A stretch of DNA of 64,000 bases from Octopus sinensis (lineage: Eukaryota), in assembly GCF_006345805.1 (NCBI RefSeq), contig NC_043005.1, forward strand, positions 83,700,001-83,764,000. The letters are read 5' to 3'. Below are positions 19,373 to 62,599 of this stretch, in pieces. Made by a program: the position numbers and the translations under genes. The first letter of the stretch is position 1, and the number at the start of each line of letters is the position of its first letter. Below the pieces are notes generated by a model. The model searched no databases. It saw only the letters and a list, made by a program, of their open reading frames with translations, and was not told the origin of the DNA.

Positions 19373-22300
19373 CTGTAATGGAAAAAAAAAAAAATAAAAC
19401 ATTATGCGTTATTGAAATAAAGTGGAAAAGTGATACAATACATATATATATATATATATATACATATACACAAACACACATGTATATATATATATATATA
19501 TATATATATATATATATATATAATATATATATATATAAACACATTCATACATACACACACACATATATATATATACACACACACATATACATACATATAT
19601 ATAAATCTCTAAACCAGATTTCTGTCTTTATAATTTCTCCATTTTTGTTATATATATATATATATATTTATATATATATGATATAAAATCTGTTCTGTCT
19701 GTGCGTCTTCTCGGATCTCGGGCATCTTCCATCCAATTGCACTCAAATTTGATATGTAGATACCGACGGTATCAGGGCATGTATAAGTCTTGAAAAAATT
19801 ACAAAAATCGATTCCATGTCAGAATGCGATTGATAAAGCTGTTTTTGTCCTGCTTTTCTTCCGTCAACCTGTACATAACTGCACCTTCCATTTTTTGTTG
19901 TTTTTGTACTACTTAAAGGCACGTTTCTTTCCTGCCAAGCTTACTGTTTGAACCATGTTTGTGTTCTCCCAGTCAACAGCCTTATCATTACTGGTACTTT
20001 AAACTCTTCGATTGCATATCTGTCTGAATAAAATCGTTTTTCTTTGGAATAGAAAAAAAAGTCTATCTTTATTTCTTCTTTTGCTGGAGTCTCAAATTTA
20101 GGTTAAATCAGTGTTTCTCAAAGGGGAGGCCTATGGGATGGTCGGACAAGTTGTTTTGAAAAAATTTGGTTTAAATGTTTGACAACTCAGCAACGTTCGT
20201 TAGACGGGGGGGGGGGGGGCTTTTGCTCGTATATATATATATATATATATATTGTTGAAATTTACAGAAAAACAAAAGACGAAGACAGGTGTGTAAATAA
20301 CAAACAGGTGTATTAGTATGACACTTGGGAAGGTGACAAAGTCGTTTAAGTTTCAAACCTACGCTCTTCAACAGAAAGGAACACAAGGAAATAAACAGAG
20401 AGAGAAGATGTGTATATATATATATATATATGTAACAAAGATGGAGAAATGATAAAGACAGAAATCTGGTTTAGAGATTTTCAATTAAGGAGGTATTTAT
20501 TTTTCGTTTACAAGGAAAGATATTGTTACAAGAAATGACTAATTTGTGGAGTGTTGGAATGTTATTTTTCTTCCTGAGACAGAGAAGGAAATTCAGTAGT
20601 TGATCAGCAGTCAATGTTCTCTGCGTGTGCGTTCCCAGCATTCTGTGTGACAACTATTAGCGCTGTGCATGTTCTATCTCACAGCTCTGGCACTCTGCCT
20701 TAGGTGCCTGAGATGTGGTGCTTTTATGGCAAAAAATCGATTCAGAGAGCTCCAAAAGCTAGAATCTCTGCAGGAGGTCAGCTCTAGGTAGTGACCCGAT
20801 TGGTCAGAATTTCCTTATTCTAGCCAATCATGACATTGCATGTAGTGACTAAATATTCCTGCAACATATATATCAAGTGTTTAAAAAGTATAAAAAATAT
20901 ATATACTATATATATACTCATGTTTTAAGTTTTATTTATCTTGTTCTACCAAACTTATAAACCTATATACATTTGTGCCTGCGTGTATAATAATATATTT
21001 AAGTTTGTGTGTGTATATGTCCTTTTCTTTTGTATTGCCAAACTCCTCTTCCTATTCCTCATAGAAAGCTTTGCTACTTTGTGTCCTTGTCTTTCCACAC
21101 TCTCTGCCTTTCATCCTTTTGGTTGTCAAGTGGTGGTGGTGGGGGTAAATACAGACACAAAGACACACACATATATGTATGTGTGTGTGAGAGAGAAAGA
21201 GAGAGTATGTGTGAGAGAGAGTGGGTGTGAGAGAGTGTGTGTGAGAGAGTGTGTGTATGTGTGTGTGCATGTATGTGTATGTGTGCATGTGTGTACGTGT
21301 GCGTGTGTGTATGCATGTGTGTGTGTGTGTGTGTGCATGTGTGTGCATGTGTTTGTATACAATGGGCTTTTTTTCAGTTTCTGTCTACCAAATCTATTCA
21401 CAAGGCTCTGGTTTGCCCAAGGCTATAATAAAAGACACTTGCCCAAAGTGTTGTTAATTAGGGTAATTGAATCAAATTAATTCTCCAATAAAAATTATAA
21501 TAAAATTTTAAAAATCTAAGACTTTGAAAGGCTCTTCAGCATGTGACATTCTAAGTCGTAAATTGTTCAACTTATGCTTAAATCCAAACCTAAATAAACC
21601 GTAACAAACACCATATAATAGAGATAAGCTTCTAGCGAACTGAGTCTATTGAAATAAATCAATAACAGCAAGTTTCTATTAGTTTTAAACATACAGCGCT
21701 GTCAAATACCTGCCATCATTCTTTAGTAATTAATGTCTCAGGAAACAAAGCTTCTTTATCCTTATGCTTGAAATTTAAAATATCTCAACAGAATAATAAT
21801 GTCTTTTTTCTTATTTCTTTACTGTCCACAAGGGACTACACACAGAAGGGACAAACGAGGACAGACAAACGGATTAAGGCGATTATATTGATTCCCCAGT
21901 GCATAACTGGTACTTATTTAATCGACCCCGAAAGGATGCAAGGCAAAGTCAACCTCGGTGGAATATAAACTCAGAACGTAGTGGCAGATGAAATACCGCT
22001 AAGCATTTCGCCCGGTGCACTAATGTTTCTGCCAGCTCACAACCTATTTTCTATGCTGGTTGGATGGTTTGACAGGATTCAAGAAGCTAGAGGACTGCTT
22101 TGGCATGGTCTCCATACTTGGATGCTCTTCCTAATGCCAATTCTACAGAGTGTACCAGGTGCTATTTTTGTGGTACCAGCACTAAGTAATTTACAAGACA
22201 AAGAAAAAGTTCCCTCAACTGAGTGAAGTGTAGTAGAAAGGAAAGGGTTGAGAGTCTAAGGTATAATAGAGGAACAGGAACAAGAGCACTGCTTACAAAG

Positions 22301-61175: not shown

Positions 61176-62599
61176 TTTAAATTAATATACACACTTGAAA
61201 CAGCTTTAGATAATCTGTATAAAATAAAATAACATAAAATAAAATGTCTGAAAAACAGCTTAAATAAGTTTGGTTTAAAAGTAGAATAGAAAGATATTTC
61301 TTTCATTTTGTTTTTTCTTTCTACAGATGAAAACATGATGATGATGGTGATGACGACGAATGATAGATTGATCGAAATCTTACACATTTGTGTAACGTTT
61401 TATAAAAGTCTCCTTTAGAAATCTCAGTTTTAACCATTTTTTAAATGTATTTGAGTGGTACTCATTGTTCCTTACTTTCCTTTCGCCGTCTGAAGATTAT
61501 GAATACCACAACATCGACACGTTCGTCTTCTGGATAGAATTTCTTGATTCTAAATTCAAATATTTTTTTGGTGCTCATTCATTCACTTTGAGTTGAAGAA
61601 AGAGACAAGGCTGTAATTTGTTTTTTTACAAAATGCTACGGACAACATTGCGTATGTGTGTGTGTGTGTGTGTGTGTGTGTGTGTGTGCGTGTGCGCGCA
61701 CGTGTGTGTTTGTGTTCTTATATCCTGTGTGGAATATAAATCGTCATCGTCATCAGTTAATGTCCATGTTTCCATGCTTAAATGGATCAGGCGGAATTTG
61801 CGGCAATAGATTTTCTACGGCCAGATGCCCTCACCCGTTTCCAAGCAAGTTCTCATAGTCAACATCTTTATTGGAAGACTGAATGGAAACATAAAACCCC
61901 TCTTATATGTTGGTGATGCTCATTTACAACCATACACGCATACACTTGCCAACCTACTTACCGACCTACCTACACACATACATACATACATACATACATA
62001 CATACATACATACATACGTACATACATACATACATACATACATACATACATACATACATACATACATACATACATACATTCATGCATACATATGTTTGTG
62101 TAAGTATGTGTGTGTATTATATATATACATATATATTCTTTTATATGCTTTAGTCATTTACTGCAGCCATACTGGAGCACCGCTTTTAGTCGAACAAATC
62201 GATCCCAGGATTTACACTTTGAAAACCTAATTCTTATTCTATCGGTATGTTTTGCCGAACCGCTAACTTATGCGAATGTAAACACATCAACATTGGTTGT
62301 CAAGCAATGATGAGGTGACAAACACAAACACACAAACATTTACACACACATATACGACGGGCTTCTTGCAGTTTCCGTCTACCAAATCCACTCACAAGGC
62401 TTTGGTTGGGCCGAGATTATAGTAGAAGACACTTGCCCAAGGTGCCAAGCAGTGGGACTGAACCCGAAACCATGTGGTTGGTAAGCAAGCTACTTACCAC
62501 ACAGCCATATCGTCAATAAATCATAAATCCGAAAGATAAGCACGCTCTGTGTTATAGAACAGGAGAAAGTTAGTTATGGCCAGTTCATAGGGTTACCCA

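What the first reader, a model, noticed from the sequence alone, without database searches (positions are those of the whole stretch)
20341..61530. Dense set of divergent minimal hammerhead-ribozyme-like motifs, many embedded in fold-back inverted repeats
Seen: about 11 loci with different sequences share the topology stem I - (C/T)(T/C)GAnGA-like core - stem II - GAAA(C) - short, often palindromic stem III - NUH - stem I'. Loci: 20341-20373(-) TTGAAGA; 38328-38366(-) TTGAAAA..GAAA-GCGC-TA; 42702-42797(-) CTGAAGA..GAAAC-GATC-GTA; 44765-44853(+) CTGAGGA..GAAAC-GGGC-GCA; 51984-52045(+); 52325-52358(+) CTGAAGA..GAAAC; 53421-53473(+); 56652-56701(-) GAAAC-GTAC-GTT; 58553-58592(+) GAAAC-AATT-GTA; 59079-59123(+) with stem GGGATCT/AGATCCC; 61486-61530(+). 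Established: Penelope-like pLTRs and retrozymes carry minimal hammerheads with palindromic stem III that cleave as dimers. Inference: many distinct non-autonomous PLE/retrozyme families occur here at about one per 4-5 kb. Some non-canonical cores (CTGCCGA at 56692-56698 and again at about 1635; CCGAAGA) may be family-fixed variants rather than decay.
Basis: partly seen in the sequence, partly recalled or inferred. Interest (0 to 1): 0.75.

Follow-up and report, generated by a model that had tools for sequence, protein, structure and literature searches.

The report
Penelope-end hammerheads with fixed odd cores
Most of these motifs are worn copies of small hammerhead-shaped RNAs at the tail ends of repeats that are, or likely derive from, Penelope jumping genes and are common across this whole animal genome; several abundant families carry fixed unusual letters in the catalytic core, and whether those still cut RNA is untested.

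Summary
Nine of 11 loci are copies of dispersed repeat families (48 to over 12,000 hits) whose members have minimal-hammerhead form. Only three fold properly as they stand (3 vs 0.43 in shuffles). Loci 1, 6 and 9 were read in the wrong register; locus 10 is a remnant, locus 11 is unsupported, and 1635 is no hammerhead. The window is not unusually dense: 3 per 64 kb against 26 per 800 kb at random. This is the known class of Cervera 2014. The CTGCCGA core is private decay, not family-fixed. Other odd cores are fixed: G3:C8 (95 of 100), C4, and U6 (100 of 100; 12,188 matches). In the U6 family the fold is conserved across subfamilies while N7 and H17 vary. Cutting is untested, and 0 of 26 U6-family copies start at the cut site.

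The parts
20343..20378 (-). Locus 1, re-registered: decayed copy (4 substitutions) of the U6 family. Core CUGUNGA, A bulge, 4-bp stem II with G10.1-C11.1, minimal ACGU palindrome
   Evidence: behind PLE RT/EN
38328..38366 (-). Locus 2: family with U3:A8 core, C.C at 10.1/11.1, 2-bp stem I
   Evidence: behind PLE RT/EN in 2 of 19 loci
38019..38058 (+). Second, more decayed arm of locus 2; fold-back around (TA)n at 38206-38235
39953..41354 (+). Broken Penelope-like RT plus GIY-YIG gene (83-86% protein identity to a 782-aa intact copy; Neptune-like Cys linker), with its 5' part inverted at about 38821-39945
41689..41730 (+).
42702..42797 (-). Locus 3: canonical core, U.U at 10.1/11.1, long stem II, palindromic stem III, 2-bp stem I; element about 42330-43180
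44763..44855 (+). Locus 4: decayed copy (GCA for GUA); 2 of 15 family loci pass the descriptor
51984..52045 (+). Locus 5: C4 core fixed in its family, one extra base before G12; inverted arm at 51879-51965
   Evidence: behind Hydra-like endonuclease in 8 of 19 loci
52317..52371 (+). Locus 6, re-registered: canonical core, U.U, 4-bp stem III, 6-9-bp stem I in the family; a fold-back whose two window arms are both damaged
53422..53472 (+). Locus 7: intact minimal hammerhead with swapped G3:C8 pair, 7-bp stem I, 5-bp stem II, U17
56651..56702 (-). Locus 8: member of a 562-bp tandem family with canonical core and A.A at 10.1/11.1; A6C at 56695 is private to this copy and its nearby duplicate
58489..58594 (+). 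Locus 9, re-registered: 5-bp stem I, family core CUGAGGA, long stem II; the window copy has A9U
59079..59123 (+). Locus 10: 3' half resembles a hammerhead lineage of this genome; 5' core absent in all 8 rows; probable dead remnant
61486..61530 (+). Locus 11: unsupported; 3 copies on one contig, all lacking GAAA

Best explanation
Nine of the loci are 3'-end copies, mostly decayed, of separate repeat families that carry minimal type I hammerhead folds; three families lie behind Penelope-like RT/endonuclease genes and the rest likely derive from such elements. Shown: the families, their copy numbers, 5' truncation, head-to-head inversion, (TA)n flanks, and fixed cores (C3:G8, U3:A8, G3:C8, C4, U6). 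Known from papers: the PLE protein nicks AT-rich DNA and reverse-transcribes from sites inside its RNA, so short copies keep the 3' end with the hammerhead. Inferred: in master elements the fold is kept by selection and cuts slowly, likely as a dimer through the palindromic stem III and with help from the element's protein, trimming tandem transcripts to unit length. G3:C8 and U3:A8 are predicted to cut; C4 and U6 are predicted to be slow. Single or fold-back copies such as those in this window are predicted to be inactive.
For: Genome sample: 10 perfect-core palindromic motifs vs 0.1 in shuffles and 0-1 with five decoy cores. In 28 of 30 PLE copies picked by protein likeness alone, the 3' UTR holds the motif; stem I pairs covary (T-A 21 / A-T 7; A-T 14 / T-A 11), stem II covaries, N7 varies (A16, T7, C5), 3:8 is T-A in 28 of 28. 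U6 family: 1 of 30 constrained columns polymorphic vs 23 of 75 flank columns (Fisher p=0.002); N7 and H17 vary; a sister family swaps a stem I pair C-G to G-C. ORF links. Family 7 has two 3' ends about 57 nt apart (14 and 15 of 34 copies), like the PLE tail. Papers: PMC4209133, PMC11167929, PMC8557442.
Against: No cleavage shown. 0 of 26 U6-family copies begin at the predicted cut. PMC11167929 found that hammerhead mutants do not impair insertion in vitro, so cutting may be dispensable. Family 7 has no same-strand PLE ORF in 17 extended loci, and families 3, 4, 6, 8 and 9 were not tied to an ORF. Families 2 and 3 have fixed 2-bp stems I. Loop II of the U6 family is as conserved as its core, so conservation need not mean catalysis. 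Copies came partly from likeness searches, which favour conserved motifs; columns are not independent.
Confidence: 0.8

Rival explanations
1. The folds are real PLE hammerheads by descent, but the odd-core families (U6, C4, C.C or A.A at 10.1/11.1) no longer cut. They spread because cleavage is not needed, and the shape is kept for another job such as binding the element's protein.
For: Cleavage is dispensable in vitro (PMC11167929). A6C and U4C are reported as low-activity (PMC3088659). No 5' ends at the cut, 0 of 26. Loop II is conserved like the core. Naiads spread without canonical hammerheads (PMC8557442).
Against: Variation falls on N7 and H17, the two positions that catalysis leaves free, and G17 never appears (0 of 100). 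G3:C8 needs two coordinated changes that make sense only for the active fold.
Confidence: 0.45
2. The motifs are chance matches in an AT-rich genome full of inverted repeats.
For: No Rfam hammerhead hit. With two core mismatches a scan gives 223 rows in the window. This fits locus 11 and the 1635 site.
Against: Enrichment over shuffles and decoys, covariation in copies chosen independently of the motif, and position behind PLE genes.
Confidence: 0.03
3. This region is a special cluster of hammerheads with a local role.
For: About 10 family remnants here vs 5.1 per 64 kb at random (12 rows, 2 AT-rich ones dropped).
Against: That library was built from this window's families and is biased. The unbiased scan gives 3 vs 2.1 per 64 kb. 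Most window copies are decayed.
Confidence: 0.05

Closest known systems
Minimal type I hammerheads of metazoan Penelope-like elements (Cervera and de la Pena 2014, PMC4209133; read parts 1-2 of 4 and supplement parts 1-2 of 3)
   Same: Many sequence families per genome, palindromic or absent helix III, extra base after A9, mostly single truncated copies, opposite-strand pairs 100-700 bp apart, U3-A8 covariation.
   Different: None of the 56 motifs in its Fig. S3, as read from the text, has G3:C8, U6 or C4. Several families here lack G10.1-C11.1 (U.U, C.C, A.A) or have stems II of 60-80 nt. No cephalopod is in that alignment.
Hammerhead of the anole PLE PAc (Frangieh et al. 2024, PMC11167929; read parts 1-2 of 4)
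   Same: AT-rich targets; two start sites that give an optional 3' tail; the C3G/G8C double mutant partly restores cutting.
   Different: There G3:C8 is an engineered rescue; here it is the natural fixed state of family 7. There the motif overlaps the ORF start; here it lies 0.2-1.1 kb behind the endonuclease.
Natural core variants (Perreault et al. 2011, PMC3088659; read passages and part 2 of 7 of section 3; term search of 11 supplements gave no hits)
   Same: U3-A8, A6C, U4C and U10.1-U11.1 are reported in nature, with low to detectable activity for the disruptive ones.
   Different: There they are rare single cases; here they are fixed in high-copy families. G3:C8 and U6 are not in the passages I read; its figures were not visible.
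Non-LTR retrozymes (Cervera and de la Pena 2020, PMC7229834, passages; Li et al. 2026, 10.64898/2026.07.22.740005, parts 1-2 of 5, supplements closed)
   Same: Family 8: non-coding 562-bp unit with one hammerhead, in head-to-tail arrays of 2-3.
   Different: Arrays are short and start with an inverted copy, as PLE insertions do. No circular RNA was shown. The other families were not found as short tandems, apart from one 662-bp pair in family 1.
Lunse, Weinberg and Breaker 2017, small hammerhead variants of PLEs that cleave as dimers (seen only as a reference and summary in PMC6765202; not held)
   Same: By its title and the review's summary: many short-stem-III variants tied to PLEs that cut as dimers.
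   Different: Unknown. It may already list G3:C8 or U6 cores, which limits my novelty claim.

Membership tests
PLE minimal hammerhead | Conserved core CUGANGA / GAAA / UH (3:8 pair may covary) | tested here: met
   Families 2, 3, 4, 6, 7, 8, 9 and the motif at 41689
PLE minimal hammerhead | Same core, families 1 and 5 | tested here: not met
   U6 in 100 of 100 listed; C4 in 19 of 23 rows, U4 in none. They are variants, not strict members.
PLE minimal hammerhead | Extra base after A9 and G10.1-C11.1 | tested here: inconclusive
   Met in families 1 and 7; G-C without bulge in 21 of 28 copies of the 41689 family; not met in 2 (C.C), 3 and 6 (U.U), 8 (A.A)
PLE minimal hammerhead | Palindromic helix III | tested here: met
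   Families 1, 2, 3, 4, 7, 8, 9; families 5 and 6 have a 3-4-bp hairpin instead
PLE minimal hammerhead | Stems covary among related families | tested here: met
   28 copies chosen by protein; stem I C-G 19, G-C 3. Not tested within young families 2, 3, 5, 6, 7, 8.
PLE minimal hammerhead | Self-cleavage as a dimer | not testable with these tools
   Needs bench assay
Penelope-like element | RT with C-terminal GIY-YIG upstream on the same strand | tested here: inconclusive
   Met for family 1 (4 of 30 pattern loci plus L194), 2 (2 of 19), 5 (8 of 19) and the 41689 family (28 of 30); not found for 7 (0 of 17 extended loci), 3, 4, 6, 8, 9
Penelope-like element | 5' truncation, inverted 5' copy, optional 3' tail, (TA)n targets | tested here: met
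   two 3' ends in families 7 and 5
Non-LTR retrozyme | Tandem non-coding units, each with a hammerhead | tested here: met
   Family 8 only: tandem in 5 of 8 regions fetched (2 held inverted pairs only, 1 none)
Non-LTR retrozyme | Expressed as circular RNA | not testable with these tools
   Only assembled contigs were available
Rfam hammerhead families | Reach the gathering score | tested here: not met

The most novel reading that the evidence does not exclude
The most abundant hammerhead seen in this genome (at least 12,188 copies, at the 3' end of a coding Penelope family) is a working ribozyme with U at the supposedly invariant core position 6, its sister works with C4, and family 7 works with G3:C8: Penelope proteins license a much wider catalytic core than the textbook consensus, and standard descriptors miss a large share of animal hammerheads.
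Probability: 0.3. Interest if true: 0.68.

Novelty: new variant of a known kind. Interest (0 to 1): 0.45.

Why it matters
The class is known and the window is ordinary for its genome. The value lies in the natural series of fixed cores. What PLE hammerheads do is still open (PMC8557442, PMC11167929). A high-copy coding family with U6, a sister with C4 and a family with G3:C8 give direct tests: if they cut, the core consensus and search descriptors need widening; if they do not, large PLE families spread without cleavage and the fold is kept for another purpose. Extrapolating one search gives roughly 70,000 intact-looking motifs genome-wide (inference from 0.8 Mb of the 15 largest contigs).

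Tried and rejected
Rfam found nothing. CTGCCGA as a family variant: rejected; A6 in 28 of 43 rows (overlapping loci counted twice), C only in the window and its duplicate 115 kb away, and every contig covering 56695 in 4 runs reads A6. A-to-I editing as the source of the 8 G6 rows: dropped, because the two arrays share flanks and look like one duplicated block. Pile-up of 5' ends at the cut: none, 0 of 26. ORF for family 7: none on the same strand; one Hydra-like ORF lies on the opposite strand 3.7 kb away. Expression: no RNA holder listed; contigs cannot show ends or circles. One of six decoy descriptors still admitted the true core and was dropped. One search held a mistyped reference and was not used. 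Literature searches for natural G3:C8 or U6: (1, 2, 2 and 0 papers; G3-C8 only as an engineered variant in PMC3884650 passage and PMC11167929; the single A6U hit, a twister paper, was seen only as a listing). Cephalopod hammerheads: nothing on these families. Earlier scan notes on U6: none. Loci 1, 10 and 1635 had no DNA-likeness search of the whole genome (locus 1 had a pattern search).

Full report
Setting. The window is C9:83.70-83.76 Mb of a 2.72-Gb animal genome, rich in (TA)n and other simple repeats. It is likely an octopus; this rests on recalled repeat features and earlier AI notes and was not tested.
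Noticed in passing
window 38821-41354: Penelope-like element with an inverted 5' part; its endonuclease region has 15,776 first-look candidates and open frames up to 796 aa elsewhere, so the family is large and includes young copies.
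   Followed up: yes
window 56500-56599: The 100-N assembly gap abuts the locus 8 element; it may hide a collapsed tandem array like the one at C9:83.870 Mb.
   Followed up: partly
window about 56600-62800: Near-identical duplicate about 115 kb downstream on the same contig; loci 4 and 11 also have local duplicates.
   Followed up: partly
L174, L183, L225, L354:4486-4520: Sister family of locus 1 with core CCGACGA (C4, A6); 3 copies in 800 kb.
   Followed up: partly
L201, L202, L080, L088, L029 and others: A same-base mismatch (U.U, A.A) next to G12 recurs in unrelated families; in some it looks like a bulge on each side of a kept G-C pair.
   Followed up: partly
window 62609-62833: Remnant matching a Hydra-like PLE protein (E 1e-7).
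   Followed up: no
window 1109-1248: Long, nearly perfect hairpin (Rfam miRNA match below gathering score); probably another fold-back insertion.
   Followed up: no
window 18229-18798 and 43710-44297: Open frames of 189 and 195 aa without Pfam match; the first resembles a mariner-type transposase remnant (recalled, untested).
   Followed up: no
window 36493-37610: 453-bp tandem duplication (98% match) followed by a 61-bp unit in three copies.
   Followed up: no
L310: Three copies of family 9 flank long arrays of a short AT-rich repeat that read as open frames of repeated KFSPKIF-like peptides.
   Followed up: no
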